Assembly: GCA_964016885.1 (NCBI GenBank) | Contig: OZ024741.1 | Span: 236,096,001 to 236,160,000, forward strand | From: Eledone cirrhosa | Taxonomy: Eukaryota | Direction: 5' to 3' | Length of the DNA stretch: 64,000 bases | Part shown: positions 9,426 to 59,340 of the stretch, one piece after another | How the letters are laid out: each line of letters opens with the position of its first letter | Position numbering within the stretch: the first letter of the stretch is position 1 | Position numbers and translations under genes: made by a program | Notes under the pieces: generated by a model | The model's database searches: none | Told to the model about the DNA's origin: nothing | What the model saw: only the letters and a program-made list of their open reading frames with translations

Positions 9426-9432
9426 ATATATG

Positions 9433-9464
<32 letters not shown>

Positions 9465-16922: not shown

Positions 16923-16975
16923 GTATATATATATGTATATATTTGTATCTGCTGATATTACTTCTTGTTGTTTTA

Positions 16976-17020
16976 ATTGCCCTGATGAGTCCTTAATAGG
17001 ACGAAACATTGTCGGCTAAT
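16976..17020 (+). ncRNA. Minimal type I hammerhead ribozyme, copy 1 (in a ~120-bp module 16943-17064)
   Basis: gcc-CTGATGA-gtcc(ttaata)ggac-GAAA-c-att-GTC-ggc: full core, 4-bp stem II, stem I gcc/ggc, predicted cleavage after 17013. Confidence 0.85.
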
Positions 17021-17073
17021 GAAAACTTTTGATGTATTCAAGGCTTCTTTGTTTTACTCTCTTAATATATATG

Positions 17074-18841: not shown

Positions 18842-18944
18842 AGATGACCCCTCCGGGAGAGATGACCCCGTAGCCTTTGTCAAGGCAGAATTCTAGGAGA
18901 AGGAAACTCTGATATAACACCTGCAACCCTGATGGTATCCAATG
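18842..18944 (+). mobile_element. Bipartite RTE derivative, copy 2 (cut by assembly gap)
   Basis: agatgacccctccgggagagatgacccc...ctaggagaaggaaactctgatataacacc matches 34521-34623. Confidence 0.85.
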
Positions 18945-19144
18945 NNNNNNNNNNNNNNNNNNNNNNNNNNNNNNNNNNNNNNNNNNNNNNNNNNNNNNNN
19001 NNNNNNNNNNNNNNNNNNNNNNNNNNNNNNNNNNNNNNNNNNNNNNNNNNNNNNNNNNNNNNNNNNNNNNNNNNNNNNNNNNNNNNNNNNNNNNNNNNNN
19101 NNNNNNNNNNNNNNNNNNNNNNNNNNNNNNNNNNNNNNNNNNNN
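18945..19144. other. Assembly gap (200 N)
   Basis: Run of n characters. Confidence 1.
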
Positions 19145-25300: not shown

Positions 25301-25795
25301 CTTCCATTTTTGAGTATTGGTGGAAGGGCTGATGCCTTGGGCGTTAAGCAAAAATGTAGAGGCGAGAGTGGATGGTTTTAATTGTTTTGGTGTGTTGTTA
25401 ATTTGTTTGTTTGTTAATGGCAGCAATGGGAGTTTGTGCAGTGGGGTGATAGTGGAGGGTGGTGCTGGGTGATAGCTCGAATGTTTTTTTCCAGTTCTTT
25501 TGCCAGATTCATTATGGCTAAAAAAGAGGAAGAAGTTTCCTGTTTAGAAGACTGTTGGTGACTGTGGTAGTGGTTATTTTTATGTAGGCTATGGTTTTTG
25601 TTTTTGCTTTTATTTTTAATTTTATTTTCATTTGTCCGACGGGTCCCCGGGAGATGGGTAAAGGGACAATCCCGGTCTAAACACAATCTGTCTCGCAGGG
25701 AAAAGCGGCAGATTTGTGGATTCCTTGTTTGAGTTATTGGTGGTTGTGTTGGTGTTAAATTAGAGTATGTATTATGGTGGTGGCTGTTTGTGGGG
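22319..25795 (-). mobile_element. CR1-group LINE family A, copy 2
   Basis: Colinear with 9889-13362 (offset 12430), same 5' and 3' ends, about 99% identical. Confidence 0.92.
22406..25426 (-). pseudogene. ORF2 of copy 2 with a nonsense mutation in the APE domain
   Basis: CAA>TAA at 24797-24799 splits ORF2 into the 138-aa and 795-aa ORFs of the track. Confidence 0.9.
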
Positions 25796-25962: not shown

Positions 25963-26532
25963 GTACAACCTGTCCCATGGTCGGGTCGTTGGCGACTAAA
26001 CTGGCAACCCCACCAAGGTTTCTTGGTGAGGAGGGTGACTTTGGACATCCTGCAGGACTAAAAACAAAACCTGTCAAAAGGCAAAGGAGCTCTTAAGAGT
26101 CAATGGCCATCCAAAATCACCGGGAGAGATGACCCCTTAGCCTTTGTCAAGGCAGAATTCTAGGAGAAGGAAAACTCTGATATAACACCTGCAACCCTGA
26201 TGGTATCCAATGATGTTGACTTGTTCTTCTTTTTGGTAAATATCATCTTGGTTAAGAGAGTGGGACTGGCTTTGTGCAGTGCCTTTGCTCACTATAAAAG
26301 CTTCACGGCACAGGCATTGCTTTATATCTGGAGATCTCTCTGCATTTGTCGTCACATGGTACCATGGGCCCAGCACTATGTGTCAATAATTGTCACAAGT
26401 GTAGTGTTTGTACCAGAGCTTTCAAGTCGCTGGCTGGACTAAAAAGTCACACTCGTTCAGCGCATCAGTAGGGGTTCTCCTACATGGATATAAAGTAGTG
26501 GCCGTACTCGAAAACGAGTTGGCAGCCACCAT
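25963..26532 (+). mobile_element. Bipartite RTE derivative, copy 3 (near full length)
   Basis: Colinear with ~39973-40543; embedded in TA array. Confidence 0.92.
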
Positions 26533-29220: not shown

Positions 29221-29273
29221 GTATATATATATGTATATATTTGTATCTGCCGATATTACTTCTTGTTGTTTTA

Positions 29274-29318
29274 ATTGCCCTGATGAGTCCTTAATAGGAC
29301 GAAACATTGTCGGCTAAT
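29274..29318 (+). ncRNA. Minimal type I hammerhead ribozyme, copy 2 (module 29240-29363)
   Basis: Core identical to copy 1; predicted cleavage after 29311; two substitutions in the flanking module. Confidence 0.85.
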
Positions 29319-29371
29319 AAAAACTTTTGATGTATTCAAGGCTTCTTTGTTTTACTCTCTTAATATATATG

Positions 29372-29534: not shown

Positions 29535-30184
29535 CCAGCGACTGGCCAGCGCATCACTGGTACTCTCTTTTGTTGACTCCGTGGAGAGCCATAACTCTAT
29601 GCTGTAAAGCAATTATAGTAATACTGGACTGTAATACGATCGGCTTCAACTATACAAACTCTTGAAAGTCAACAGTTGACATAATCTGGTAATCTTGTAT
29701 CAGTAATGACGGTAATATATATATAGATATATGTGTGTGTGTGCGTGTAAGTGAGTAGAGTAGCGTGTGTGTGTGTTTGTTGTGTGTGTGAGTGTTGCTG
29801 TGTGCACGCATATGTATGCGTGTGTGTGTATGTCGTACGTATAAGTGTCAATAAGTAATTTTTTTTTTTTTTTTTTTTTTTTTGCGCGGGGACATAGAAA
29901 TAATCGGGCTGGATGCCCGATCGCGCAGTTAAACCACTGGGAGTGAAGAACCCCTAGCCCATGTCAGGGTATTCTTCTAGGAGAAGGCATCTCAGGAAAC
30001 TGGGTTAACTCCGATATAAAACCTGCGGCTCAGTAGTTACCGATGATGTTGATCTTTTCTTCTTTTCGGGTTATAGCTACTGTCGCTCAGAGAGTGGGAT
30101 TGGTTCAGTGCACAGTCTTTCCTCACTTTAAAAATATTCGTCACGCACAGGCATTGCACGAGTGCATTAATAATTATTAATAGT

Positions 30185-30221
<37 letters not shown>

Positions 30222-30226
30222 TATTA

Positions 30227-30259
<33 letters not shown>

Positions 30260-33200
30260 CCCAATTCAATGATGTTCCAGAACAATGTAAACGAGATAAT
30301 TGCCAATTTGGGTTCTGGAACAAAAGAGATCATTGGCAATAAGGGCAGGGGCCCCAAGTTATCACAACCTGGGCCCGCCCGTCATCGTGCCATTGTAATA
30401 GAGCCAAACAGGGCATTTAGTCTTGGCTGCTGGAACGTACGGACGCTGCTTGACAGGGATTCTTTGGAGCGTCCTGAACGAAGGACCGCTCTTGTTGCGA
30501 AGGAGCTTCGACGTTACGATCTTGACATCGTGGCTTTGTCTGAGACGAGGTTAGCTGGAGATGGTCATCTTACGGAATTTTGTGGAGAATATACATTCTT
30601 CTGGAAAGGAAGAGATGAAGGAACCAGAAGAGAGGCTGGGGTAGGATTTGCTGTTAAGACTGTACTGGTGAATAAATTAGAAGAATTCCCAGTGGGGATT
30701 AGTGAGCGTCTTATGTCCATGAGAGTTCCGCTGGACAAGGGAAGATATGCTGCCCTGGTGAGTGTGTATGCTCCAACTATGAATTCTGTCGATGAAGAAA
30801 AACTGTCCTTTTACCATGCCTTGAAAGGTGTTTTAAGAAATATCCCTCAGGCAGACAAAGTCATCGTGCTTGGTGACTTTAATGCTAGAGTGGGTAGGGA
30901 TTTTAACACATGGAATGTGATCGGAAGGCATGGGGTGGGAAAGTGTAACAGCAATGGTATGCTCTTGCTGCAGATGTGTGAGGAGCTGGATCTGTGTGTT
31001 ACCAACACCATGTTCCAACAAAAGAACAAATTCAAGACCACATGGATGCATCCTGCATCTAAGGAATGGCATCTTTTGGACTACGTCCTAGTCAGGATGC
31101 GTGACAGACAGGATGTGCGGTGTGTTCGTGTTCTTCGTGGAGCTGAGTGCTGGACGGACCACCGCCTGGTACGCGCAAAAGTGAATCTAATCACCAAACG
31201 TAAAATCCGGGCTCCTGGTGTTACCCTGCCCAAAAGATTGAATGCTGCTCGTCTTAAGGATAAAAATGTGAAGAGGACATTGGAAGAAGAGATGCAGGCT
31301 GCAGATCTTGGTGAGGATTGGCCGACCCTTAAAAAGTCGGTTTATGATGTAGGCAGACGTGTTCTGGGATTGGTGCAGAGAAAACATCAGGACTGGTTTA
31401 ATGAGAAAGATGTGCATATAGATGACTTGTTGGCTGATAAGAGGCGCGCTCTGTCACGCTACTTGACGGCAAGACCACAGGAGAGGAATACGTTGCATGA
31501 GGAGCTCAGGGATGTAAAATCACGTGTTAGGCGGAGTCTTTCTCAGATGAAGGATCAGTGGTGGAGTGAGAAGGCTGGTGAGATACAAACTGCGTCTGAT
31601 TGCAATAACACAAAGCTGTTGTACAGTCTCTTGCGTGAGGTTTATGGACCGTCTTCTTCTCTGGTGACACCGATTCGCAGCAGGGATGGCAAAGAACTTC
31701 TTCGTGACTCACAGGGAATTCTACGAAGGTGGCGAGAGCACTTTGATGATCTTTTGAATCAGCCGTCTGTCGTCAGTGAAGATTTCCTCAATCTCATTCC
31801 GGAAAGTCCTGTGAAAGTAGCTCTCGCAGAGCCTCCGACACTTGTGGAGGTTGCAGTGGCTATTTCGAAGCTGAACAGTGGAAGATCTCCAGGTATGGAT
31901 GGCATACATGCTGAGCTCCTACAATATGGTGGTGAGAGACTCCTGCAACATCTTCACTCTCTGTTTGGAAGGATATGGGCTAATGAATCCGTGCCTGAGG
32001 ACTGGAGAGATGCAGTAATGGTGGTCTTGTACAAGGGAAAGGGTAACAGGAATGATTGTGGGAACTACAGAGGTATATCATTGCTTTCTGTCGTGGGGAA
32101 AGTTTTATGTAGGGTGCTTCTGGACCGTCTGCTGACACACATTGCAGATTGTGTCCTTCCTGAAAGTCAATCTGGTTTTCGTGTTGGACGCGGCACTACT
32201 GATATGATCTTCTCAGCTAGACAGCTCCAGGAGAAGTGCATTGAACAGGGCTTGGATCTGTATCAGGTTTTTGTCGATCTGACAAAGGCTTTCGATACTG
32301 TCAACAGAGATGCATTATGGAAGGTTCTCCAGAAACTTGGTTGCCCTGATAAGTTCCTTGCTTTAGTTAGGTCTTTCCATGACGACATGAAGGCTTGGGT
32401 TAATGTCGGAGGTAACATGTCGGAGCCTATCTCAGTAAAAAATGGAGTGAAACAGGGGGATATTCCAGCACCGACCCTGTTTGCCATATACTTTGCAATG
32501 GTTTTCTGTGTTGCATTCAGGAATTGCGAGCATGGTGTTTACATCCGATATCGAACCTCAGGCAGCATATTTAACATCAGGCGCTTTGCTGCGAAGACAA
32601 AAGTATTTACATCAGTCATAAGAGACCTCTTGTATGCAGATGATTGTGATCTTGTAGCGCACACAGAGAGTGATATGCAGCACATTTTGAATGTATTTTC
32701 TGACGCTTGCACTGCCCTGGGTTTGACTGTCAGTCTCAAGAAAACCGTCGTCATGTACCAACCTGCACCTGGTAGGCAGTACACTGAACCAAACATCTAT
32801 GTGTATGGCAAGCGACTTGGAGTGGTTGATCAGTTTGTCTACCTGGGAAGCACTGTCAATCGATACGGCAACCTTGACAGTGAAATCTCACTTAGGATTA
32901 GGAAAGCAAGTGATGCTTTCGGAAAGCTAGAAAGGCGACTCTGGGGTCGGCGAGACATATGCAGGAGGACAAAGGTAAGGGTGTACAGGGCATGTGTACT
33001 CTCTTGTCTTCTTTATGCCTGCGAGACCTGGGTCACATATCGACGCCACCTTGAGCAATTGGAGCGTTTCCATCAGATGTGTCTCAGACGGATACATGGC
33101 GTTCACTGGAGGGACCACATCAGTGATGTCGAGATTTTGGAAAGCTCTATGTGTGACAGTATAGAAGCTCTTGTGCTTAAGCAGCGACTCCGTTGGAGTG

Positions 33201-33822
33201 GTCACCTTGCCAGGATGAAGGATTCTAGAATACCAAAACAACTCTTCTATGGAGAGTTGGTTAAAGGAAAACGACCGCCACATAAACCAAAAAAGAGGTA
33301 TAAGGATTCCTTGAAGGCCTCTCTGAGAGACGCTAACATCTCTGCTGATACATGGGAAAATATTGCTGCTGATCGTAATAAATGGAGAAAGACTGTATAT
33401 GAGGGAAAAGTTGCCTTTGAGGCATCTCGAATCGCACACGAGAAAGTAAAGCGGGACGTGAGGAAGGGTATTGCTGTTGCACTTCCAGACGGCGAGGGTC
33501 CTCCTATGTTTCTGACATGCAGCGTCTGTGCGAGACTCTGCCTAAGCAAAGCTGGACTCGAAAGTCATCTTCGCAGTCATAAAGTAAGACCAGTGGTTGA
33601 CTACCAGGCTGCTGTTGGAGATGCTACTCATCATGCTTGCCAAACATGTGGTAGAGAATGTAAATCAGCAGGAGGACTCAAGCGACATGCAAAAGTACAC
33701 GAACTCCAACCACAGCCGACTATTCCCAGTAAATGTTTTGGTTGCCGACTCTGTGCAAGACATTTTGGATCATTGGCTGGGCTAAAAAGCCACATTCGAT
33801 CGCAGCACTGTTAGTTGCTATC

Positions 33823-33864
<42 letters not shown>

Positions 33865-34520: not shown

Positions 34521-34944
34521 AGATGACCCCTCCGGGAGAGATGACCCCTTAGCCTTTGTCAAGGCAGAATTCTAGGAGAAGGAAAACTCTGATATAACAC
34601 CTGCAACCCTGATGGTATCCAATGATGGTGACTTGTTCTTATTTTTGGTAAATATCATCTTGGTTAAGAGAGTGGGACTGGCTTTGTGCAGTGCCTTTGC
34701 TCACTATAAAAGCTTCGCGGCACAGGCATTGCTTTATATCTGGAGATCTCTCTGCACTTGTCGTCACATGGTACCATGGGCCCAGCACTCTGTGTCAATA
34801 ATTTTCACAAGTGTAGTCTTTGTACCAGAGTTTTCAAGTCGCTGGCTGGACTAAAAAGTAACACTCGTTCAGCGCATCGGTAGGGGTTCTCCTACATGGA
34901 TATAAAGTAGTGGCCGTACTCGAAAACGAGTTGGCAGCCACCAT
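34521..34944 (+). mobile_element. Bipartite RTE derivative, copy 4 (5'-truncated)
   Basis: Matches ~40130-40543; same 3' terminus. Confidence 0.92.
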
Positions 34945-38254: not shown

Positions 38255-39013
38255 AGAGACTTGGGAGTAACCGTGGACAGCAACATAAGCTGGACCACGC
38301 ATATAAGCAGCAAAGTTGACATGGCCCGCAGAATGTGTTCCTGGATCCTCAGAACCTTCCAGTCGAGAGATTCCCGCACCATTATCCTTCTCTTCTCTAC
38401 TTTCGCCCGACCACACCTTGAATACTGTTGTCCACTGTGGTCTCCCCACACGAAACAAAGTATCATGAAACTTGAAGCTCCTCAAAGGGCAATCACGAAA
38501 AAGATAGATGGCATGTCAGACCTTGACTACTGGGGTCGATTAGAACACCTGAAACTTTACTCACTCCAACGTCGCCGTGAGCGTTATATTATCTGCATGA
38601 TGTGGAAAATGTTCCATCATCACTGCCCAAATGATGTTGGCATCGCCTTCAAGATACACCCAAGGCTTGGGCCCCGTGCTATCCGTCCCATTCAAAAATC
38701 TAAATCGCAACTCATAACAACAATACGGCACAATTATTTCACCTCAATCGGCCCTGCTCTCTTCAACATCACACCAGGACACGTCAAAACAGAAACTGAC
38801 CACACAAAATTCAAGAAGTCTTTGGACAAATTCCTCCAAGTAATCCCGGACAAACCACCCACACCTGGATATGTCTCCGCAAACAGTAATTCTCTTCTCG
38901 AATGGGCCATGGTGCCCAAATCCTGAATTGAAAGACTTCGCCAGGTGGTGCTATTAAGTTAGACATGGCCTGGGCCAATACTGGCCAAAACATTTCAAAG
39001 TTATTCAAAGTTA
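38255..39013 (+). mobile_element. CR1 family A, copy 3 (3' ~760 bp)
   Basis: [10 protein letters not shown]...EWAMVPKS* and the same 3' UTR and tail as copies 1 and 2, in opposite orientation. Confidence 0.92.
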
Positions 39014-39563: not shown

Positions 39564-39611
<48 letters not shown>

Positions 39612-39616
39612 ACATA

Positions 39617-39648
<32 letters not shown>

Positions 39649-39739
39649 CATACATATATATATATACATACATATATATATACATACACATATATATATA
39701 TATACATACATATATATATACATATATATACATACATAC

Positions 39740-39827
<88 letters not shown>

Positions 39828-39829
39828 CA

Positions 39830-39861
<32 letters not shown>

Positions 39862-39885
39862 CATACATATATATATATACATACA

Positions 39886-39920
<35 letters not shown>

Positions 39921-39932
39921 GCATACATATAT

Positions 39933-40543
39933 GGTCAGGTCACCAGTTGGTGCTACTGGTAACATGTATCCCAGTACAACCTGTCCCATGGTCGGGTCGT
40001 TGGCGACTAAACTGGCAACCCCGCCAAGGTTTCTTGGTGAGGAGGGTGACTTTGGACATCCTGCAGGACTAAAAACAAAACCTGTCAAAGGGCAAAGGAA
40101 CTCTTAAGAGTCAATGGCCATCCAAAATCACCGGGAGAGATGACCCCTTAGCCTTTGTCAAGGCAGAATTCTAGGAGAAGGAAAACTCTGATATAACACC
40201 TGCAACCCTGATGGTATCCAATGATGTTGACTTGTTCTTCTTTTTGGTAAATATCATCTTGGTTAAGAGAGTGGGACTGGCTTTGTGCAGTGCCTTTGCT
40301 CACTATAAAAGCTTCACGGCACAGGCATTGCTTTATATCTGGAGATCTCTCTGCACTTGTCATCACAGGGTACCATGGGCCCAGCACTATGTGTCAGTAA
40401 TTGTCACAAGTGTAGTGTTTGTACCAAAGTTTTCAAGTCGCTGGCTGGACTAAAAAGTCACACTCGTTCAGCGCATCAGTAGGGGTTCTCCTACATGGAT
40501 ATAAAGTAGTGGCCGTACTCGAAAACGAGTTGGCAGCCACCAT
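39933..40543 (+). mobile_element. Bipartite RTE derivative, copy 5 (longest, ~611 bp)
   Basis: Structured 5' head, RTE 5'-UTR core, zinc-finger remnant and 3' stem-loop; no long ORF. Confidence 0.92.
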
Positions 40544-40879: not shown

Positions 40880-41269
40880 GTGTGTATATATATATATATA
40901 TGTATATATGTATATATATATGTATATCTATATATGTATATATATATATGTATATATATATATGTCATCATCATCATCATCATCATCACCGTTTTACGTC
41001 CGTTCTTCCACGCTAGCATGGGTTAGACGGGTTGTCCTGTTGTGGGCAGTGTCTGGTCGGCTGACCATGCCTTGCTCATACAGGAACTGATCTGGCTTGA
41101 TTTCTACAGCTGGATGCCCTTCCTAACACCAACCTCATTTACAGTGAGTGCTGGGTGCTTTTTCGTGGCGCCTACACGTCCACTTTACAGTGTGGGCTGG
41201 GTGCTTTTTTGCCGTGGCACCTCCACGACCACCTTGCGGTGGGGGGGGGGGGCATATTGTTTATATGCT

Positions 41270-44200
41270 TCAGCATGTACACATGGGAGGTCGGGTACCC
41301 TGTATTACTGCGTGACGCCAGAAGTCACGGTCGTGTGTCATTGACTTTGAGAGGTGTAGTTGGGTAAGGTCGGCTTTTATCACCTCATCCCAAGTCATCT
41401 TGGGTCTCCCCACTCCGCGGTTTCCATCAACTTCTAGTGCTCTGCACCTTTTTATGCAGCTGTCATCCTTCATACGCATCACATGTCCATACCAGCGTAA
41501 CCGCCTCTCCTGCACGCAGCATTTGATTCCTCTTATGCTCAGTCTCTCTCTCAATTCATTTATGCTTTGTCGTTCACGTATATTACTGTTACACATCCAT
41601 CGGAGCATGCAGGCTTCGTTTCTCTCTAATCTACGTAAGTCTTCCACCTTCAGCGCCCAGGTCTCACTACCATGCAACATCGCTGTTCGGATACACGCAT
41701 CATACAGTCTGCCTTTCATTCTGAGGGAGAAGCCTTTTGCAGCTAGCAGTGGTAGTAGTTCCCTAAACTTCTTCCATCCCGTTCTTACCCTAGTTATTGT
41801 ACTTTCTGAGCACCCACCTCCGTTGCTAATTCGGTCACCTAGGTAGCAGAAGCTGTCTACTGTTTCTACAGGGCCCTCCCAGAGATTGGTGGTACTTGTT
41901 TCCTGTGGCTGTTTGCTTGCTGTTTCAGCACAGCTGCTGCATGTGAATCCTACATTCTTAATTAAGCTTCCTGAGATCCCGCTACATCTCTTGTGTACCC
42001 ATTGTTTGCATTTGGGGCAAAGAATGGAGTTCCTACCTACACCTTTCCTACATACTGAGCAAGGCCATTTCCCTGAGGGGATCTGGGTTCTGTTTTCTCG
42101 TCTACTTATAAGGACCTTAGTCTTTGTCATGTTGACTTTGAGGCCCTTTCTCTCTAGTCCCTGCTTCCAGGTTTGGAATTTATTCTCTAGTTCTACCATA
42201 GATTCAGCTATGAGTGCGAGGTCATCAGCATACAGGAGTTCCCATGGGCATCCGGTCTTAAACTCCTCCGTTATTGCCTGCAGGACTATGATGAACAGGA
42301 GAGGGCTAAGAACAGAGCCCTGGTGGACCCCAACCTGTACGCTAAATTCCTCGCTATACTCATTGCCAATCCTAACTTTGCTGACTGCTCCCCTATACAT
42401 GGCTTGTACCGCTTTCACAAGCCATTCATCTACTCCTAGTTTTCTAAGAGCCCACCAGATTACTGCACGTGGAACTCTGTCAAAGGCTTTCTCAAGGTCG
42501 ACAAATGCCAAGTAGAGTGGCTTACTTTTAGCTAGGTACTTTTCCTGTAATTGCCTCACAAGGAAGAGCGCATCAGTGGTGCCTTTCCCTGGAACAAACC
42601 CAAATTGCATCTCGTCTATATTCACCCGGTCCCTAATCAGCTGTGCTATAACTCTTTCTGTTACTTTCATGACCTGGTCCATCAACTTTATACCTCTATA
42701 GTTTCCTCTATCTAGTGCATCGCCTTTACCTTTGTAGCAGTTGACAATGATGCTACTGCACCAATCTTTTGGTATGGCCCCCTCTAGTATTACCTGGTTA
42801 ACGATACGTGTGGTTATAGTGTGACCTACAGACCCAGATGCCTTCAGCATCTCGGCAGCTATACCCGATGGACCGGTTGCCTTCCCTATCTTCATATCTC
42901 TGATTGCCTTACTTACTACGCTGCCGCTGACTTGTATTGCTGGTCCCTCTATAGGGTCTACGTGGGGTAGGGTCTCTTCTTCCCATGCATTCTCCTCATT
43001 TAGTAATCTATCATAATGACTCTTCCATGCATCTTTCTTCTCAGCACTTGTGAGGGCAAGCTCACCTTTATCATTCCGGATACACTTCTCTCCAATGACA
43101 TCACAACTATCTCTGACACACTGCCTCGCAATCTTGAATACCTCCTGTTTCTGGTCCTCACGTTGTAAAACATGCTTGAATTTTCTATCCTCTGCTTCCC
43201 TCCTAGCTAAGTATACTTGTCGCCTAGCTTCCCTCTTGGTCTCTATGTAATGTACCCTGCTCCCCCCGTTCTTCCATTCTTTCCATGCCTGTCTCTTGGC
43301 CTTGACTGCTTCATCTACCTTATTGTTCCACCACCAAGTCACTCTCCTCCTGCTTGAGGTCTTACTCCAGCCACAAACCTCATCCGTCGCCTCTAGTAAG
43401 TTATTTTTTAGGAACTCCCAGTTCTCTTCTACGTTAAATGTCTCTATCTGTTCTTCTTTACTGTCGTAGGCGTTGAGTAAAATATCTTTAAATCTGTTAC
43501 TGGTTGAGGGGACTTTCAGCTTCCAGATCTTTCTTCTCCAGGTTGGCCTCTGTTTCAGGGCTCGTCTAGTTCTGACCGTGAGGTCGCTGACAACTAAGCT
43601 ATGTTGGGATGTACATTCCTCACTAGGGAAGGCTTTTGTGTTTACGACCGTCCATCTGTCACGTCCTCTGATGAGGATAAAATCTAACTGACTAGAGTGC
43701 TCCCCTGATCTATAGGTGATCAGGTGGTTGTCGGGTTTTTTAAAGTTTGTGTTACATATCGACATGTCATTGGCGTCGCAGAATTCTAGAAGTCTGAATC
43801 CTTCCTCATTCCTTGTGCCAACTCCATGGCCTCCATGTACTCTATTGAAGCCGTCGCAGTGTTTACCTACGTGTCCGTTAAAATCTCCTGCAATGATTAG
43901 GAAGTCCTTGTCGTCTGTTAGAGCAGTAGTGTGTATTAGGGACTCGTAAAACCTATCCTTAAGTTCGTCTGGCAGCCCCGATTGGGGTGCGTAAGCTGAT
44001 ATTATTGTGGTAATTGTCTTATTCAGGACTAGTCTGAGTTTAATGATTCTTGCATTTACCCTGTACACTGAGATTACTTTATCTACCCACTTGTCAGCTA
44101 ATAGTATACCTACACCACCCATCCCATCGTCATTTCCCACCCAGAAAAATTTGTAGCACTGGCTTTTTCCTACAAGGACTCTAGCAGACCCTCCTCTCCA

Positions 44201-44389
44201 TCTAGTCTCTTGCACACAGCATACATCAACTTCCTTTCGCTCTAGCATTTCTACGATTTCTCCTGCTCTTCCTTTCATTGAGCCTACATTGATGGTACCA
44301 ACTCGGAGTTTTGGGCATTTGTCGACACTCGTAGGGGAGGGTCTCTGGGTTGGCGCTTCACGTGGGTGCTTGGTAGCTCGCAGATTCAT
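41270..44389 (-). CDS. RTE polyprotein: APE + RT with inserted PHD-type finger (1039 aa, intact)
   Basis: GTINVGSM, CVQETRW, AYAPQ, AGDFNGHVG; [28 protein letters not shown]; C4HC3 at ~41930-42067. Confidence 0.95.
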   Translation of the reverse strand: MNLRATKHPREAPTQRPSPTSVDKCPKLRVGTINVGSMKGRAGEIVEMLERKEVDVCCVQETRWRGGSARVLVGKSQCYKFFWVGNDDGMGGVGILLADKWVDKVISVYRVNARIIKLRLVLNKTITTIISAYAPQSGLPDELKDRFYESLIHTTALTDDKDFLIIAGDFNGHVGKHCDGFNRVHGGHGVGTRNEEGFRLLEFCDANDMSICNTNFKKPDNHLITYRSGEHSSQLDFILIRGRDRWTVVNTKAFPSEECTSQHSLVVSDLTVRTRRALKQRPTWRRKIWKLKVPSTSNRFKDILLNAYDSKEEQIETFNVEENWEFLKNNLLEATDEVCGWSKTSSRRRVTWWWNNKVDEAVKAKRQAWKEWKNGGSRVHYIETKREARRQVYLARREAEDRKFKHVLQREDQKQEVFKIARQCVRDSCDVIGEKCIRNDKGELALTSAEKKDAWKSHYDRLLNEENAWEEETLPHVDPIEGPAIQVSGSVVSKAIRDMKIGKATGPSGIAAEMLKASGSVGHTITTRIVNQVILEGAIPKDWCSSIIVNCYKGKGDALDRGNYRGIKLMDQVMKVTERVIAQLIRDRVNIDEMQFGFVPGKGTTDALFLVRQLQEKYLAKSKPLYLAFVDLEKAFDRVPRAVIWWALRKLGVDEWLVKAVQAMYRGAVSKVRIGNEYSEEFSVQVGVHQGSVLSPLLFIIVLQAITEEFKTGCPWELLYADDLALIAESMVELENKFQTWKQGLERKGLKVNMTKTKVLISRRENRTQIPSGKWPCSVCRKGVGRNSILCPKCKQWVHKRCSGISGSLIKNVGFTCSSCAETASKQPQETSTTNLWEGPVETVDSFCYLGDRISNGGGCSESTITRVRTGWKKFRELLPLLAAKGFSLRMKGRLYDACIRTAMLHGSETWALKVEDLRRLERNEACMLRWMCNSNIRERQSINELRERLSIRGIKCCVQERRLRWYGHVMRMKDDSCIKRCRALEVDGNRGVGRPKMTWDEVIKADLTQLHLSKSMTHDRDFWRHAVIQGTRPPMCTC

Positions 44390-44631
44390 ATTTCATCTAT
44401 TGATTCAGAGTTGCTCGTGTATTCCCAGCTCATCCATCCATAACGGTGGGAAAATTGAGGGCTAGAAGGACAGTGGTGGTGGGGTAATGGCAGGGTGTGT
44501 TGGGATGCGCCAGAGGAGGAGAGAGTTAGTTAGGCAGGTAGTAGCAGCAGCAGCAGTGGAAATGGCATGCTAGGTTTGATTGGTCGAATAGACTATGGTG
44601 GTGTGTGGGGGTGGGGGGAGGGAAATTGTGA

Positions 44632-47600
44632 GGTAGGAACTGAGGGTCGCATGGTAAATATCCAAGTTAATACTACATCAGTAAAATTAACAATAATAAC
44701 GTCATGAAAAAAGCTACTAAGAGAAACCCTCGAAAATTTATCGCTAATACAGCAGGGAAAATTTAACGCTAATACAGCAGGGAACATCATAATATTAACG
44801 ACATGAAAAAGCTACTAAGAGAAACCCTCGAAAATTTATCGCTAATACAGCAGGGAAAATTTAACGCTAATACAGCAGGGAACATCATAATATTAACGAC
44901 ATGAAAAAGCTACTAAGAGAAACCCTCGAAAATTTATCGCTAATACAGCAGGGAAAATTTAACGCTAATACAGCAGGGAACATCATAATATTAACGACAT
45001 GAAAAAGCTACTAAGAGAAACCCTCGAAAATTTATCGCTAATACAGCAGGGAAAATTTAACGCTAATACAGCAGGGAACATCATAATATTAACGACATGA
45101 AAAAGCTACTAAGAGAAACCCTCGAAAATTTATCGCTAATACAGCAGGGAAAATTTAACGCTAATACAGCAGGGAACATCATAATATTAACGACATGAAA
45201 AAGCTACTAAGAGAAACCCTCGAAAATTTATCGCTAATACAGCAGGGAAAATTTAACGCTAATACAGCAGGGAACATCATAATATTAACGACAATATGTA
45301 GGCTAAAATACCTTCGTAGATTAGGTGGATGGCTGGCTGGGCAAATTTGAATCAGCTCTACTGGTACATTTTAGCAGAGAAGAATGGCAAAGTGTCTTAT
45401 CTCTTCAATATTTTCAGATTGAATGAATTAGGTTAAAGACAGGGTAGTAAGCCTTAAAGAAGTGCATAGAGGGGGGGGGGGGGGTAGGAACTGAGGGTCG
45501 CATGGTAAATAACTGAGAGAGATACAATAGGATTAGAATACCGCATGGTAAATATCCAAGTTAATAAGTTAATACTACATCAGTAAAATTAACAATAATA
45601 ACGTCATGAAAAAAGCTACTAAGAGAAACCCTCGAAAATTTATCGCTAATACAGCAGGGAAAATTTAACGCTAATACAGCAGGGAACATCATAATATTAA
45701 CGACATGAAAAAGCTACTAAGAGAAACCCTCGAAAATTTATCGCTAATACAGCAGGGAAAATTTAACGCTAATACAGCAGGGAACATCATAATATTAACG
45801 ACATGAAAAAGCTACTAAGAGAAACCCTCGAAAATTTATCGCTAATACAGCAGGGAAAATTTAACGCTAATACAGCAGGGAACATCATAATATTAACGAC
45901 AATATGTAGGCTAAAATACCTTCGTAGATTAGGTGGATGGCTGGCTGGGAAAATTTGAATCAGCTCTACTGGTACATTTTAGCAGAGAAGAATGGCAAAG
46001 TGTCTTATCTCTTCAATATTTTCAGATTGAATGAATTAGGTTAAAGACAGGGTAGTAAGCCTTAAAGAAGTGCATAGAGGGGGGGGGGGGGGGGGTAGGA
46101 ACTGAGGGTCGCATGGTAAATAACTGAGAGAGATACAATAGGATTAGAATACCGCATGGTAAATATCCAAGTTAATAAGTTAATACTACATCAGTAAAAT
46201 TAACAATAATAACGTCATGAAAAAAGCTACTAAGAGAAACCCTCGAAAATTTATCGCTAATACAGCAGGGAAAATTTAACGCTAATACAGCAGGGAACAT
46301 CATAATATTAACGACATGAAAAAGCTACTAAGAGAAACCCTCGAAAATTTATCGCTAATACAGCAGGGAAAATTTAACGCTAATACAGCAGGGAACATCA
46401 TAATATTAACGACATGAAAAAGCTACTAAGAGAAACCCTCGAAAATTTATCGCTAATACAGCAGGAAAATTACCGCTAATACAGCAGGGAACATCATAAT
46501 ATTAACGACATGAAAAAGCTACTAAGAGAAACCCTCGAAAATTTATCGCTAATACAGCAGGGAAAATTTAACGCTAATACAGCAGGGAACATCATAATAT
46601 TAACGACAATATGTAGGCTAAAATACCTTCGTAGATTAGGTGGATGGCTGGCTGGGCAAATTTGAATCAGCTCTACTGGTACATTTTAGCAGAGAAGAAT
46701 GGCAAAGTGTCTTATCTCTTCAATATTTTCAGATTGAATGAATTAGGTTAAAGACAGGGTAGTAAGCCTTAAGAAGTGCATAGAGGGGGGGGGGGGGGGG
46801 TAGGAACTGAGGGTCGCATGTAAATAACTGAGAGAGATACAATAGGATTAGAATACCGCATGGTAAATATCCAAGTTAATAAGTTAATAACTACATCAGT
46901 AAAATTAACAATAATAACGTCATGAAAAAAGCTACTAAGAGAAACCCTCGAAAATTTATCGCTAATACAGCAGGGAAAATTTAACGCTAATACAGCAGGG
47001 AACATCATAATATTAACGACATGAAAAAGCTACTAAGAGAAACCCTCGAAAATTTATCGCTAATACAGCAGGGAAAATTTAACGCTAATACAGCAGGGAA
47101 CATCATAATATTAACGACATGAAAAAGCTACTAAGAGAAACCCTCGAAAATTTATCGCTAATACAGCAGGGAAAATTTAACGCTAATACAGCAGGGAACA
47201 TCATAATATTAACGACAATATGTAGGCTAAAATACCTTCGTAGATTAGGTGGATGGCTGGCTGGGCAAATTTGAATCAGCTCTACTGGTACATTTTAGCA
47301 GAGAAGAATGGCAAAGTGTCTTATCTCTTCAATATTTTCAGATTGAATGAATTAGGTTAAGACAGGGTAGTAAGCCTTAAAGAAGTGCATAGAGGGGGGG
47401 GGGTAGGAACTGAGTGGTCGCATGGTAAATAACTGAGAGAGATACAATAGGATTAGAATACCGCATGGTAAATATCCAAGTTAATAAGTTAATACTACAT
47501 CAGTAAAATTAACAATAATAACGTCTGAAAAAAGCTACTAAGAGAAAACCCTCGAAAATTTATCGCTAATACAGCAGGGAAAATTTAACGCTAATTACAG

Positions 47601-49922
47601 CAGGGAACATCATAATATTAACGACATGAAAAAGCTACTAAGAGAAACCCTCGAAAATTTATCGCTAATACAGCAGGGAAAATTTAACGCTAATACAGCA
47701 GGGAACATCATAATATTAACGACATGAAAAAGCTACTAAGAGAAACCCTCGAAAATTTATCGCTAATACAGCAGGGAAAATTTAACGCTAATACAGCAGG
47801 GAACATCATAATATTAACGACATGAAAAAGCTACTAAGAGAAACCCTCGAAAATTTATCGCTAATACAGCAGGGAAAATTTAACGCTAATACAGCAGGGA
47901 ACATCATAATATTAACGACAATATGTAGGCTAAAATACCTTCGTAGATTAGGTGGATGGCTGGCTGGGCAAATTTGAATCAGCTCTACTGGTACATTTTA
48001 GCAGAGAAGAATGGCAAAGTGTCTTATCTCTTCAATATTTTCAGATTGAATGAATTAGGTTAAAGACAGGGTAGTAAGCCTTAAAGAAGTGCATAGAGGG
48101 GGGGGGGGGGTAGGAACTGAGGGTCGCATGGTAAATAACTGAGAGAGATACAATAGGATTAGAATACCGCATGGTAAATATCCAAGTTAATAAGTTAATA
48201 CTACATCAGTAAAATTAACAATAATAACGTCATGAAAAAAGCTACTAAGAGAAACCCTCGAAAATTTATCGCTAATACAGCAGGGAAAATTTAACGCTAA
48301 TACAGCAGGGAACATCATAATATTAACGACATGAAAAAGCTACTAAGAGAAACCCTCGAAAATTTATCGCTAATACAGCAGGGAAAATTTAACGCTAATA
48401 CAGCAGGGAACATCATAATATTAACGACATGAAAAAGCTACTAAGAGAAACCCTCGAAAATTTATCGCTAATACAGCAGGGAAAATTTAACGCTAATACA
48501 GCAGGGAACATCATAATATTAACGACAATATGTAGGCTAAAATACCTTCGTAGATTAGGTGGATGGCTGGCTGGGCAAATTTGAATCAGCTCTACTGGTA
48601 CATTTTAGCAGAGAAGAATGGCAAAGTGTCTTATCTCTTCAATATTTTCAGATTGAATGAATTAGGTTAAAGACAGGGTAGTAAGCCTTAAAGAAGTGCA
48701 TAGAGGGGGGGGGGGGGGGTAGGAACTGAGGGTCGCATGGTAAATAACTGAGAGAGATACAATAGGATTAGAATACCGCATGGTAAATATCCAAGTTAAT
48801 AAGTTAATACTACATCAGTAAAATTAACAATAATAACGTCATGAAAAAAGCTACTAAGAGAAACCCTCGAAAATTTATCGCTAATACAGCAGGGAAAATT
48901 TAACGCTAATACAGCAGGGAACATCATAATATTAACGACATGAAAAAGCTACTAAGAGAAACCCTCGAAAATTTATCGCTAATACAGCAGGGAAAATTTA
49001 ACGCTAATACAGCAGGGAACATCATAATATTAACGACATGAAAAAGCTACTAAGAGAAACCCTCGAAAATTTATCGCTAATACAGCAGGGAAAATTTAAC
49101 GCTAATACAGCAGGGAACATCATAATATTAACGACATGAAAAAGCTACTAAGAGAAACCCTCGAAAATTTATCGCTAATACAGCAGGGAAAATTTAACGC
49201 TAATACAGCAGGGAACATCATAATATTAACGACAATATGTAGGCTAAAATACCTTCGTAGATTAGGTGGATGGCTGGCTGGGCAAATTTGAATCAGCTCT
49301 ACTGGTACATTTTAGCAGAGAAGAATGGCAAAGTGTCTTATCTCTTCAATATTTTCAGATTGAATGAATTAGGTTAAAGACAGGGTAGTAAGCCTTAAAG
49401 AAGTGCATAGAGGGGGGGGGGGGGGTAGGAACTGAGGGTCGCATGGTAAATAACTGAGAGAGATACAATAGGATTAGAATACCGCATGGTAAATATCCAA
49501 GTTAATAAGTTAATACTACATCAGTAAAATTAACAATAATAACGTCATGAAAAAAGCTACTAAGAGAAACCCTCGAAAATTTATCGCTAATACAGCAGGG
49601 AAAATTTAACGCTAATACAGCAGGGAACATCATAATATTAACGACATGAAAAAGCTACTAAGAGAAACCCTCGAAAATTTATCGCTAATACAGCAGGGAA
49701 AATTTAACGCTAATACAGCAGGGAACATCATAATATTAACGACATGAAAAAGCTACTAAGAGAAACCCTCGAAAATTTATCGCTAATACAGCAGGGAAAA
49801 TTTAACGCTAATACAGCAGGGAACATCATAATATTAACGACATGAAAAAGCTACTAAGAGAAACCCTCGAAAATTTATCGCTAATACAGCAGGGAAAATT
49901 TAACGCTAATACAGCAGGGAAC
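44632..49922. repeat. Higher-order tandem array: 98-bp monomers in blocks of 6,3,4,3,4,3,4,4 with ~310-bp linkers
   Basis: Monomer starts 44803, 44901, 44999; linker landmark gtaggaactgag at ~44633, 45484, 46095, 46800, 47403, 48110, 48719, 49425. Confidence 0.95.
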
Positions 49923-50115
49923 ATATATATGTATATATATATATGTATATATATATATGTATATATATATATGTATATGTATATATATGTATATATATGT
50001 ATGTATGTATATGTATATATATGTATGTATATATATGTATATATATGTATATATATGTATATATATGTATGTATATATATGTATATATATGTATATATAT
50101 ATATGTATATATATG

Positions 50116-50555: not shown

Positions 50556-50785
50556 CTTCACGGCACAGGCATTGCTTTGTATCTGGAGATCTCTCTGCAC
50601 TTGTCGTCACATGGTACCAAAGGCAAAGCACTATGTGTCAATAATTGTCACAAGTGTAGTGTTTGTACCAGAGTTTTCAAGTCGCTGGCTGGACTAAAAA
50701 GTCACTCGTTCAGCGCATCGGTAGGGGTTCTCCTACATGGATATAAAGTAGTGGCCGTACTCGAAAACGAGTTGGCAGCCACCAT
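50555..50785 (+). mobile_element. Bipartite RTE derivative, copy 6 (3' 230 bp)
   Basis: Encodes [20 protein letters not shown]; same terminus gttggcagccaccat. Confidence 0.9.
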
Positions 50786-55351: not shown

Positions 55352-55773
55352 GTATATATATATGTATATATATACATGTATATATATATATGTGTATATA
55401 TATATATATATGTGTATATATATATATATATGTATATATATATGTATATGTATATATATATATGTAAATATATACATATGTATATATATACATGTAAATA
55501 TATACATATGTATATATATACATATGTATATATATACATATGTATATATATACATATATATATATATACATATACATATATATACATGTATATATATATA
55601 CATATATATGTGTATATATATATACATGTATATATATATACATATATATGTATATATATATATGTAAATATATACATATGTAAATAGATACATATGCAAA
55701 TATACACATATGTAAATATATACATATGTATATATATTAATATGTATATATATATACATATATATATATATAC

Positions 55774-55895
<122 letters not shown>

Positions 55896-55979
55896 TTATT
55901 AAAATGCTCCTCGGTTCTTATATATATTTTCCTTATCGAGCCCTCTTTTGATTTTAGTCTTCAATTTTATTATTATCAC

Positions 55980-56010
<31 letters not shown>

Positions 56011-56065
56011 ATACATATACATATATATATATATATATATATACATATATATATACATATATATG

Positions 56066-56181
<116 letters not shown>

Positions 56182-56182
56182 C

Positions 56183-56277
<95 letters not shown>

Positions 56278-56476
56278 CATATATATACATATACATATAT
56301 ATATATACATATATATATATACATATATATACATATACATATATATATATACATATATATATATACATATATACATATATATATATACATATACATATAT
56401 ATATATACATGTATATATATACATATATATATATACATGTATATATATACATATATATATACATATATATATATAC

Positions 56477-56543
<67 letters not shown>

Positions 56544-56664
56544 CACATATATATATGTTTATACATATATATATGATTACATATATATATATATAATGTG
56601 TATATATATATATATATATGTGTATATATATATATATATATGTGTATATATATATATATATATA

Positions 56665-57144: not shown

Positions 57145-58820
57145 GAAATAATGAAATAATGAAATTATTGTGTACAGTGCTCAGGTGCACTACAACTCAT
57201 CAAAGGTGCATGTATAGTACATAAAATAATGTACAAATGTCAGGAAATTGAACAGTGTATGAGTCATGATATAATAATAATAATAATGAAATATTGTGTA
57301 CAGTGCCCAGGTGCACCACAACTCATCAAAAAGTGCATGTACAGTACATAGGGCAATGTACAAACATCAGGAAAATGAACAGTGCACGAGTCATGATACG
57401 TGTGCATGTGTATGGAAGGGGTACATCAGGTGTAGTTTTGGCGTATTTCGGGAAGCATGAGTGTCTTAAAGGATGCAGTGTCTCTGCAGCTAACAACTGA
57501 TGCAGGCAGTTTGTTCCATGCTTCAGCAACTCTGAGCGTGAAAAAATGTCAACGAAAGTCATTGCAGCTGTGCTGTTTTCTGATTTTGTAGGCATGTCCA
57601 CGTGTGTTAGACACGTGGAGATCAAAAAGGTGCTCAGGGTTGCAATTGGCGAGATGGTTAATAACTTTGTGGGTATTTACCAAGTCCATTGCCAGACGTC
57701 GGAGCTTCAATGAATCCATGCCCAGGGAAGCAAGGCGTTCAGAGTATGGTAGGTGTCTGATGGAGAGTATGCGCTTGGTTGCACGTCTCTGAACAGTTTC
57801 CAGGAGGTCAATGTTCTGAGCAAGATAGGGGTTCCAGACTGATTATGCGAATTCCAAGTGTGGTCGTACCATAGCTGTATACAGTTTTAAATAGATGGCT
57901 GGAGAACGGCTAACAAAGGTCTTGCTGAGTGATGCCAATACACCCTCGGCCTTCTTGACAATCTTAGAGTCATGCTTTGTCCCACGCTGCTGACAGTAAT
58001 GCCCAGGTCACGTTCACAAGAGGACTTCTTGATATCAGTGTCGTGGAAGGAGTATATGGACGCTGGATTTTTCCTCCCAAAATGCATGGTGGTACACTTG
58101 TCCACAGCCAGCTTCAGTTGCCAGTGTGTGATCCATTGCTGCATTGTGTCCAGGTCTGATTGTAGGAAAGAGTTGTAGATTTCAGGATCAGTCCTTTTGA
58201 TTTCAAGGTACAGCTTGATGTCATCTGCATATTTCAGTACCGTGGCATTCTGTAAGTTGGCATCTATGTCATTAATATATGCCACAAACAAAAGGGGACC
58301 AAGAACAGATCCCTGTGGTACACCAGATGTCATCTCATATGGTGAAGAATGCTGTCCTAGAACCGTGACTACTTCTTTTCGGCTGAGAATGAAGGATTTC
58401 AACCAGTCGAAAAGATCATCCCTCACACCCATTGCAGAGAGTTTTGCCATAAGTCTTTTGTGTGGCACAGAATTAAAAGCCTTAGCAAAGTCAAGGTAAA
58501 CAACATCCACCCATGAGCCGCTGTCAGTGATCCGGGTGATGTCTTCAAGGAACTCGATAAGCTGATCACAGCAGCTGGAGTTAGGGATAAATCCAAACTG
58601 TGAGAGCCGGATGAGGCTGTGAGAGCTCCAGAAGTTCCAAAGTGTTTCTCTGACACAGGATTCCATCAGTTTGGCCATACAGCTAGTAAGACTGACTGGA
58701 CGATAGATGACAGGTGACATGCGGTTGTGCTTTTTGAACAGGGGAATGACACTGGCAGTTTTCCACTGCTCCGGAGTAGCACCATTGTTGAGACAGTATT
58801 GAAAGAAGAAAGAAAGCTGG
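57145..58820 (-). mobile_element. CR1-group LINE family C, 5'-truncated, with duplicated 3' end
   Basis: YRPVSLTS, QFGF, YLDFAKAFN, GVPQGSVLGP, YADD; frameshift after ERDLGI; tail seen as gaaataat repeats on plus strand. Confidence 0.88.
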
Positions 58821-59080
58821 AACAATACCCCTCCACTACACACCCACAAACACACACCCAGCCTACACTGTAAAGTGGTCGTGTAGGCGCCACGGAAAAA
58901 AGGCACCCAGCACTCACTGTAAACGAGGTTGGTGTTAGGAAGGGCATCCAGCTGTAGGAATCAAGCCAGAATCAGTTCCAGTGTGAGCAAGACAAGGTCA
59001 GCCGACTGGACACTGCTCGCAACAGGACAACCCATCTAACTCATGCTAGCGTGGAAGAATGGACGTAAAACAGTGATGAT
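58821..59080 (+). mobile_element. RTE P1 3' UTR fragment
   Basis: Reverse complement of ~40975-41205; ends ggacgtaaaacagtgatgat. Confidence 0.8.
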
Positions 59081-59146
59081 ATATATATATATGTGTGTGA
59101 GTGTGTATATATATGTATATATATATATATGTGTGTATATATATAT

Positions 59147-59340
59147 CATCATCATCACCGTTTTACGTCCGTTCTTCCACGCTAGCATGGGTTAGACGGG
59201 TTGTCCTGTTGTGGGCAGTATCCAGTCGGCTGACCTTGTCTTGCTCATACTGGAACTGATTTTGGCTTGATTTCTACAGCTGGATGCCCTTCCTAACACC
59301 AACCTTATTTACAGTGAGTGCTGGGTGCTTTTTTGCCGTG
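59147..59340 (-). mobile_element. RTE P1 3' UTR fragment
   Basis: Near-identical to ~40978-41170. Confidence 0.85.

What the first reader, a model, noticed from the sequence alone, without database searches (positions are those of the whole stretch)
44632..49922. 5.3-kb four-tier tandem array at the 5' end of an intact RTE
Seen: a 25-bp doublet (gaaaattta[t/a]cgctaatacagcagg) sits inside a 98-bp monomer. About 31 monomers form blocks of 6,3,4,3,4,3,4,4, separated by ~310-bp linkers with a G run, and the 3/4 alternation gives a ~1.31-kb super-period. Copies are near identical. The array joins the 5' UTR directly and stops mid-monomer at the TA array, like a 5' insertion junction. Established: mouse L1 and Dictyostelium TRE5-A use tandem 5' promoter modules. 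Inference: a renewable tandem promoter in an RTE, or a satellite being born from a LINE UTR.
Basis: partly seen in the sequence, partly recalled or inferred. Interest (0 to 1): 0.7.

Follow-up and report, generated by a model that had tools for sequence, protein, structure and literature searches.

The report
Tandem-repeat leader on a LINE retrotransposon
An intact jumping gene (a LINE, likely of the RTE type) has 5.3 kb of nested, near-identical repeats joined to its front end; a matching 37-base stretch on both flanks suggests the repeats likely moved with it, and they likely act as a renewable promoter like that of mouse L1, which is untested.

Summary
The array is real: 31 monomers of 98 bp (30 full, 1 partial) in blocks of 6,3,4,3,4,3,4,4, with seven ~310-bp linkers, joined without a spacer to the 242-bp leader of an intact 1039-aa EN-RT-PHD ORF. 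Three tiers are solid (doublet, monomer, cassette). The 1.31-kb fourth tier rests on monomer counts alone (2 of 20 orders; the last block breaks it). Differences between copies look like read errors (10 indels, 2 substitutions, none shared). New here: an exact 37-bp direct repeat in the TA/TG tract flanks element plus array, and the 5' junction lies inside a monomer, so monomer sequence most likely went through reverse transcription with the LINE. Also new: a motif found in the 5' UTR of two distant relatives lies in this family's 3' UTR and is absent from the leader and array, which fits a replaced 5' end. Best reading: a monomer-plus-tether 5' module working like mouse L1's, recently expanded by unequal exchange. 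Promoter activity and family-wide occurrence were not testable; no second full-length copy was available. Main rival: a one-off 5' transduction of a host repeat. Verdict: new variant of a known kind, interest 0.5.

The parts
40929..40965 (+). Left copy of a 37-bp direct repeat in the TA/TG tract (candidate target-site duplication)
   Evidence: identical to 49924-49960
40965..40988 (-). 3' microsatellite tail, eight TGA units
   Evidence: read directly
40989..41269 (-). 3' UTR, with a terminal hairpin and a relocated conserved motif
   Evidence: sequence; folding z -2.5 for the whole UTR; short copies at 58847-59080 and 59145-59333 are 90-95% identical
41095..41144 (-). Conserved ~50-bp motif that lies in the 5' UTR of relatives L002a and L002b
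   Evidence: profile from five non-window copies hits it at E 5e-6; no hit in 44393-49922
41270..44389 (-). Single intact ORF, 1039 aa: APE endonuclease, reverse transcriptase, PHD finger
   Evidence: 120 listed homologs at 46-55% identity, 114 of 120 with the PHD-like pattern
44390..44631 (-). Unique 242-bp leader (tether), C-rich on the sense strand, no repeat
44632..44703 (-). ORF-proximal short form of part A (72 bp; lacks a 43-bp and an 8-bp stretch)
44704..45291 (-). Block 1: six 98-bp monomers
45292..45605 (-). First of seven linkers: part B (45292-45470), G run (45471-45484 on +), long part A
45483..49423 (-). Six full cassettes (A + 3 or 4 monomers + B + G run), 603-707 bp each
   Evidence: 2 substitutions and 10 single-base indels in 3868 bp, none shared
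49424..49924 (-). Last cassette: part A, three full monomers and a partial one; 5' junction inside the monomer with one base of overlap with the target
49924..49960 (+). Right copy of the 37-bp direct repeat

Best explanation
The array is joined directly to the leader of an intact LINE and is likely that element's own 5' module, likely copied into the TA microsatellite together with it, and likely serving as a renewable RNA polymerase II promoter in the manner of mouse L1 monomers. Shown: monomers, cassettes, a 242-bp tether, an open ORF, a flanking 37-bp direct repeat, a junction inside a monomer, and the absence from the 5' side of a motif that relatives carry there. Inferred: (1) this lineage lost the ancestral 5' end and acquired a new cassette, B + (98-mer)n + A; (2) a second cassette became joined upstream at the G/C tract; (3) out-of-register exchange or slippage between monomer blocks then multiplied the linker, in the donor or at this site, very recently; the proximal A lies outside the exchanging unit and so stays different; (4) transcription can start in any cassette, so a copy truncated within the array keeps promoter units. 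Because the sense strand upstream of the ORF holds 132 ATG triplets, RNAs starting far upstream would be good templates but poor messengers; protein would come mainly from starts near the tether. Rough odds: monomer sequence co-inserted with the LINE 0.8; typical of the family 0.6; promoter function 0.5.
For: Exact 37-bp direct repeat ending at the tail and starting at the monomer break: reached by 6 of 1500 and 7 of 1500 sampled tract positions, 0 of 255 positions in the same right tract, 0 of 140 in the same left tract, 1 of 306 cross pairs of junctions; it is the longest of 18 island-flank matches. No TA spacer inside 40965-49920, whereas TA tracts bound the other islands of this region. 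Junction is mid-monomer. Tether of 242 bp against ~250 bp for mouse and rat L1 (PMC5381506, passages). Motif 224 and 242 nt upstream of the endonuclease start in both L002 copies, but 3' of the ORF in all three ORF-linked window copies and not detected in 44393-49922. 5' UTR switching is documented for RTE LINEs in tobacco (10.1101/2022.11.04.512097, parts 1-2 and passages). All eight blocks start with the same longer-A-run monomer variant, so the cassette was copied as a unit. Near-zero divergence: 2 substitutions to 10 indels in the array against 31:3 and 9:0 between true element copies in the window.
Against: No transcription data. The monomer is 35% GC, not a CpG island, with no YY1 consensus and no TATA box; initiator-like hexamers (three per distal cassette) are at about the level chance gives, by a rough estimate not run as a call. 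The flanking repeat lies in low-complexity DNA with a 14-bp period, occurs 13 times in the window, and could be 9, 23 or 37 bp long; flank matches of 15 or more occur at 6 of 18 islands against 63 of 306 cross pairs, so the positive control is weak. None of the 3 relatives with 5' flank in hand (L001, two copies in L002; 45-47% identity, other hosts) has tandem monomers. Only one copy with a 5' end exists in the window; the other family members are 5'-truncated.
Confidence: 0.5

Rival explanations
1. One-off 5' transduction or chimera: a donor LINE lay downstream of a host repeat block, or the reverse transcriptase jumped onto a repeat RNA, so this single copy carried the array along. The array is not a regular part of the family and need not be a promoter.
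For: Explains the flanking direct repeat and the mid-monomer junction equally well. Relatives lack monomers. The monomer has no clear promoter marks. Such fusions are named as a source of new RTE 5' ends in 10.1101/2022.11.04.512097 (passages).
Against: The proximal part A shares its sequence with distal A without a substitution and is followed by a 242-bp unique leader before the ORF, an ordered layout rather than a break into coding or random sequence. The family lacks the ancestral 5' motif here, so it would need some other 5' module.
Confidence: 0.25
2. Nascent satellite: a short 5' cassette came in with the LINE and expanded in place by DNA-level exchange, with no benefit to the element; the array is a local by-product.
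For: Near-zero divergence and the (3,4)x3 pattern fit recent unequal exchange. A 9-kb cDNA is long for this clade: mean curated RTE-BovB length is 3583 bp in PMC10294476 (passages).
Against: Does not exclude promoter function; it concerns size only. The alternation is not significant (2 of 20 orders). No other block of the monomer was seen in the window.
Confidence: 0.15
3. Assembly artefact: the cassette is real but its copy number or order was inflated or shuffled by the assembler.
For: Variants are single-base indels clustered at 46.4-47.6 kb, typical of unpolished long-read consensus; the window holds a 200-N gap elsewhere.
Against: Read-like errors and uneven block counts fit sequence taken from spanning reads better than a graph walk (inference); both outer junctions are clean and match each other.
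Confidence: 0.05
4. Independent element: a head-to-tail array of a non-autonomous Helentron (HINE) with central tandem repeats, or a host satellite, that merely sits beside the LINE.
For: The unit left module + variable tandem core + right module resembles oyster HINEs (PMC7492417, passages).
Against: No inverted match of 10-12 bases (one mismatch allowed) between A and B, no hairpin in A and only one internal hairpin in B, no internal microsatellite. HINEs make no target duplication, yet one direct repeat encloses LINE and array together.
Confidence: 0.05

Closest known systems
Mouse L1Md and rat L1 5' UTR (tandem monomers plus tether)
   Same: Tandem monomers upstream of a ~250-bp unique tether; 5' end cut inside a monomer; rat units are ~650 bp, like the 600-700-bp cassette (PMC5381506 and PMC6454616, passages).
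   Different: Different LINE type (one ORF, microsatellite tail); monomer 98 bp, 35% GC, no CpG island or YY1 consensus; two nested repeat levels; 5.3 kb long; promoter activity not shown.
RTE-clade LINEs with 5' switching (SolRTE of tobacco)
   Same: Single EN+RT ORF, microsatellite tail, conserved body with an exchanged 5' UTR (10.1101/2022.11.04.512097).
   Different: The words 'tandem' and 'repeat' do not occur in that paper's main text; here the new 5' part is a nested array, the ORF has a PHD finger, and a 5' motif sits in the 3' UTR.
Bipartite RTE derivatives and RTE-bodied SINEs (Kojima 2018, PMC5786205)
   Same: A 5'-UTR domain fused to the 3' end of an RTE; the window element's 3' UTR has this two-part make-up, and L003 holds tRNA-like-headed short elements with the same motif.
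   Different: Here the two-part module is the 3' UTR of an autonomous ORF. This particular motif was not found in the paper's supplement text, so its 5' origin rests on L002.
Dictyostelium TRE5-A
   Same: A 200-bp 5' module with promoter activity; a 5'-UTR module (B) duplicated into the 3' UTR (PMC3159450, passages), a loose parallel to the relocated motif.
   Different: Two ORFs, tRNA-gene targeting; tandem A-modules are recalled, not seen in the passages read.
Helentron HINE elements with central tandem repeats (oyster Cg_HINE, DINE-1)
   Same: Left module, variable tandem core, right module; can occur in tandem.
   Different: No subterminal inverted repeats, terminal palindrome or internal microsatellite here, and a flanking direct repeat is present.

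Membership tests
RTE clade of non-LTR retrotransposons | Single ORF with APE endonuclease and RT, no gag-like ORF1 | tested here: met
   definition as in 10.1101/2022.11.04.512097
RTE clade of non-LTR retrotransposons | 3' microsatellite tail instead of poly(A) | tested here: met
   eight TGA units at 40988-40965
RTE clade of non-LTR retrotransposons | RT phylogeny groups with named RTE references | tested here: inconclusive
   No named RTE reference was available; tree of 25 rows unresolved. Closest other window LINE (E 3e-90) belongs to a family whose short copies carry the RTE 5' domain printed in PMC5786205's supplement; human L1 ORF2 scores only 1e-32
RTE clade of non-LTR retrotransposons | [quoted passage not shown] | tested here: inconclusive
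   No Rfam match; own HDV-like descriptor found none but had no positive control
Mouse-L1-type monomeric promoter | Tandem monomers at the 5' end, joined to the ORF by a unique tether | tested here: met
Mouse-L1-type monomeric promoter | 5' end truncated within a monomer, insertion flanked by a target duplication | tested here: met
   low-complexity target, length ambiguous
Mouse-L1-type monomeric promoter | CpG-island, GC-rich monomers with a YY1 site | tested here: not met
   GC 0.35, CpG o/e 1.0 on four CpGs; no GCCATNTT on either strand
Mouse-L1-type monomeric promoter | Monomers present in variable number across full-length copies of the family | not testable with these tools
   No eukaryotic genome collection; one 5'-complete copy in the window
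Mouse-L1-type monomeric promoter | Transcription starts within monomers; additive promoter activity | not testable with these tools
   needs CAGE or reporter data
Helentron HINE | Subterminal inverted repeats of 11-12 bp shared by left and right modules | tested here: not met
Helentron HINE | 3' palindrome near the end and internal microsatellite | tested here: not met
Helentron HINE | No target-site duplication | tested here: not met
   37-bp flanking direct repeat
Satellite with higher-order repeat | Higher-order unit marked by shared diagnostic variants | tested here: not met
   no variant shared between alternating cassettes; the cassette level itself is a clear higher-order unit
Satellite with higher-order repeat | Long arrays elsewhere in the genome, independent of the LINE | not testable with these tools
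   only the window and prokaryotic collections could be searched

The most novel reading that the evidence does not exclude
An RTE-type LINE lineage has turned its layout around: the ancestral 5' motif moved to the 3' end, and a nested, self-renewing promoter array took its place, convergent with rodent L1 but in an invertebrate single-ORF LINE. The element's own reverse transcriptase copies up to 9 kb and rebuilds cassettes by re-entering the template at the C tract, so that LINE insertions themselves seed higher-order satellite arrays.
Probability: 0.15. Interest if true: 0.75.

Novelty: new variant of a known kind. Interest (0 to 1): 0.5.

Why it matters
LINEs lose their 5' promoter in most insertions, and how they keep or replace it is well worked out mainly for mammalian L1. 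PMC6454616 calls the many-monomer 5' end a special feature of mouse L1 and says the mechanism of monomer duplication is unclear. A second, independent case in a single-ORF LINE, with two nested repeat levels and a marked proximal copy, would let that mechanism be tested by comparing block counts across young insertions. It would also give a dated example of a higher-order repeat arising from a retrotransposon leader. If it is a one-off transduction, it is an ordinary though tidy event.

Tried and rejected
Monomer elsewhere: no match in the rest of the window, no exact 25-mer in GTDB genomes, no cassette match in plasmids, none in the 16 fetched loci. These collections are prokaryotic, so this excludes vector or bacterial origin only. 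Structured RNA: no Rfam family at gathering score in the window, only TA-tract noise at E up to 1 in 40900-46200, no tRNA; monomer, A, B and tether fold no better than shuffles (z -0.6 to 0.7). Coding role for the monomer: only repeated frames of 61-86 codons; not pursued. B as a diverged copy of the tether: not supported (258 of 300 shuffles scored as high). A as an inverted piece of the endonuclease gene: one scoring scheme beat 300 shuffles, but against the whole element it held in only one of three schemes (2, 27 and 58 of 150 shuffles as high); rejected. Monomer as an old 4 x 25 bp repeat: only subunits 1 and 2 are alike. Polymerase III transcription on the sense strand: each monomer has a T run of five or more (31 in all), so unlikely. 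HINE: rejected. rDNA-spacer-like origin was considered from memory; no rRNA gene in the window; no test beyond that. RT tree: uninformative. Names for the homologs could not be obtained, so clade and host names stay unchecked by that route. A search of the supplements of PMC9115989 for six short window motifs found none, but 4 of 8 files were not searched and only 4.1 million characters were read, so this is no evidence of absence. Literature: ten searches showed no paper describing a nested 5' array on an RTE; the library lacks most subscription papers and Repbase entries, and bioRxiv supplements were closed.
Full report
Setting. From about 8 to 57 kb the window is a chain of LINE pieces separated by TA/TG microsatellite tracts, nearly all with G on the + strand. 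The host is an animal. An octopus-like cephalopod is a likely guess: a neighbouring LINE has the endonuclease, RT, C-terminal C2H2 finger and microsatellite 3' end described for octopus RTE-2_OV (PMC9115989, passages), and its short derivatives carry a 22-base match to the RTE 5' domain of squid SINEs. This was not confirmed, and part of the guess is recall.

The array. Splitting 44632-49925 at fixed anchors gives 31 monomers in blocks of 6,3,4,3,4,3,4,4. Of these, 28 are error-free copies of the internal or block-first form, two carry small errors and the last is cut at about 84 bases. Each linker is part B (~178 bp), a G run of 10-17 and part A (~122 bp). Read in the element's direction, the repeating cassette is B, monomers, A, C run. 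The first monomer after every A has one extra base in its A run, in 8 of 8 blocks, so cassettes were copied whole. The A next to the leader is 72 bp and lacks two stretches (43 and 8 bp) bounded by direct repeats; it has no substitution against the long form. Cassettes 2-7 differ from error-free cassettes by 2 substitutions and 10 single-base indels in 3868 bp, none shared. True element copies in the window differ the other way round, 31 substitutions to 3 gap columns and 9 to 0. I read the array's variants as mostly sequencing error and its true divergence as close to zero. The 1.31-kb period is present as lengths, but only 2 of 20 orders are needed to match it and block 8 breaks it; three tiers are firm, the fourth is not.

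The element. The ORF runs 44389-41270 on the minus strand for 1039 aa, with Pfam endonuclease, RVT_1 and PHD matches and intact catalytic motifs. The search listed 120 homologs at 46-55% identity; 114 of 120 have the PHD-like pattern, so the PHD finger is a lineage trait, not a local oddity. A 76%-identical truncated relative at 19573-20677 differs mostly at third codon positions (63, 39, 164 over 365 codons). One ORF, no ORF1 and a trinucleotide tail fit the RTE clade; a tree could not confirm this because no named reference was at hand.

Did the array arrive with the element? The 37 bases ending at the tail (40929-40965) are identical to the 37 bases starting at the monomer break (49924-49960). 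With one flank fixed, 6 of 1500 and 7 of 1500 sampled tract positions reach 37; 0 of 255 positions in the same right tract reach even 30; 0 of 140 in the same left tract reach 37 and 2 reach 35; 1 of 306 cross pairs of real junctions reaches it. Against this: the string is low-complexity, has a 14-base period, occurs 13 times in the window, and 6 of 18 islands reach 15 or more against 63 of 306 cross pairs, so target duplications are not clearly enriched among the other islands. With 18 islands one such match could arise in roughly 6% of cases, though this island was chosen beforehand. With the missing TA spacer and the mid-monomer break, the simplest reading is one insertion whose 5' end lay in a monomer. 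This does not say how many cassettes the RNA held.

A displaced motif. The scan of GTDB genomes gave 16 loci; about eight look like eukaryotic LINE contigs inside bacterial bins and the rest are weak matches of 24-38% identity. Three copies have sequence upstream of the endonuclease: L001 and two in L002. None has tandem monomers. Both L002 copies carry a ~50-bp motif 224 and 242 nt upstream of the endonuclease start; L001 does not have it there, and the 3' ends of L001, L002, L005 and L006 lack it. In the window the motif lies 3' of the ORF in all three ORF-linked copies (41123, 20937/21049, 37431) and in three short pieces. A profile built from five non-window copies finds the 3' UTR copy at E 5e-6 and nothing in 44393-49922. 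A six-base core at about 44505, at similar spacing from the ORF, may be a remnant but is not significant. L003 holds two short elements with a tRNA-like head, this motif and an RTE-like tail (by eye), the make-up Kojima describes for RTE-bodied SINEs (PMC5786205, parts 1-3 of 5 and two supplement searches). I infer that this lineage took such a two-part module as its 3' UTR and replaced its 5' end. The 5' position rests on two copies in one contig.

How it most likely works. Monomers, a 242-bp tether and then the ORF is the layout of mouse and rat L1 (PMC5381506, passages), where monomer number varies, the first monomer is truncated and duplication offsets 5' loss (PMC6454616, passages). I commit to the same logic here at 0.5: the cassette is an acquired polymerase II promoter, a second cassette was joined at the G/C tract, and out-of-register exchange between monomer blocks multiplied the linker while leaving the proximal A untouched. 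The sense strand of 44393-49922 has no AATAAA or ATTAAA, so a long RNA is not barred, but it has 132 ATG triplets, so long RNAs would serve as templates rather than messengers. What is not shown: any transcription, and any second copy. The monomer lacks the CpG-island and YY1 marks of L1, so it works like, at most, and is not a member of, the L1 monomer family. Some RTEs instead rely on host promoters and a 5' ribozyme (PMC8501958, passages); none was detected here, with a weak test.

Rivals. A one-off 5' transduction or template jump gives the same junctions and cannot be excluded from one locus (0.25). Expansion in place with no function for the element (0.15) differs only in what the extra cassettes do. 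Assembly inflation (0.05) and an independent HINE or satellite (0.05) fit less well.

Papers and what was seen: passages only for PMC9115989 (plus supplement list and a partial supplement search), PMC6007223, PMC6454616, PMC5381506, PMC3159450, PMC7492417, PMC6947457, PMC10294476, PMC4758252, PMC8501958, PMC11203168, PMC2881922; part 1 of 3 plus passages for PMC13282606 (supplement listed, not read); parts 1-2 of 6 plus passages for 10.1101/2022.11.04.512097 (supplements closed); parts 1-3 of 5 plus supplement searches for PMC5786205. Ten searches showed no description of a nested 5' array on an RTE; repeat libraries such as Repbase and Dfam, where such a family could already be curated, were not available.

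Verdict. A real, very young nested array that most likely belongs to the insertion of an intact RTE-type LINE whose lineage has rearranged its untranslated ends. New variant of a known kind; interest 0.5, limited by having one locus and no functional data.

Noticed in passing
window 8000-57150: A dense chain of LINE pieces, each set in TA/TG microsatellite; almost all tracts have G and no C on the + strand, with short reversed stretches at 39607-39933 and 55498-56557. Suggests repeated nesting into microsatellite tails.
   Followed up: partly
window 29860-33829 (+): Second intact-looking LINE (open frame of 1245 codons; endonuclease, RT, C-terminal C2H2 finger) ending in a GT tract; same domain layout as octopus RTE-2_OV.
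   Followed up: partly
window 25968-26529, 39979-40540, 34522-34941, 9063-9422, 50556-50782, 18843-18944: Young short elements (88-98% alike) that join an RTE 5'-UTR domain to a C2H2-finger remnant and a TA tail: likely internally deleted, non-autonomous derivatives.
   Followed up: partly
window 9891-13361 and 22321-25794 (-), 38256-39011 (+): Two 99%-identical full-length copies of another LINE family (one with an open 1044-codon frame, one with a stop at about 24797) and a 3' fragment, all in TA tracts.
   Followed up: no
window 20856-21087: The 3' UTR of the related truncated copy holds a 112-bp tandem duplication that includes the conserved motif; the studied element has a shorter internal duplication there.
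   Followed up: partly
window 16942-17064 and 29240-29362: Two 98%-identical 123-bp islands, each with a 16-base flanking direct repeat; nature unknown.
   Followed up: no
L002:1-4593: A contig binned as a bacterium holds two PHD-type LINE copies in a row, both with the conserved motif in the 5' UTR; L001-L008 look like eukaryotic contamination of prokaryotic genome records.
   Followed up: partly
L003:7389-7550 and 9290-9520 (-): Two copies of a short element with a tRNA-like head, the same conserved motif as body and an RTE-like tail.
   Followed up: partly
window 57147-57398: A 127-bp unit in two copies, 86% alike, at the end of the large TA tract, downstream of a minus-strand RT fragment at 57887-58960.
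   Followed up: no
window 18945-19144: A gap of 200 N inside a TA tract.
   Followed up: no
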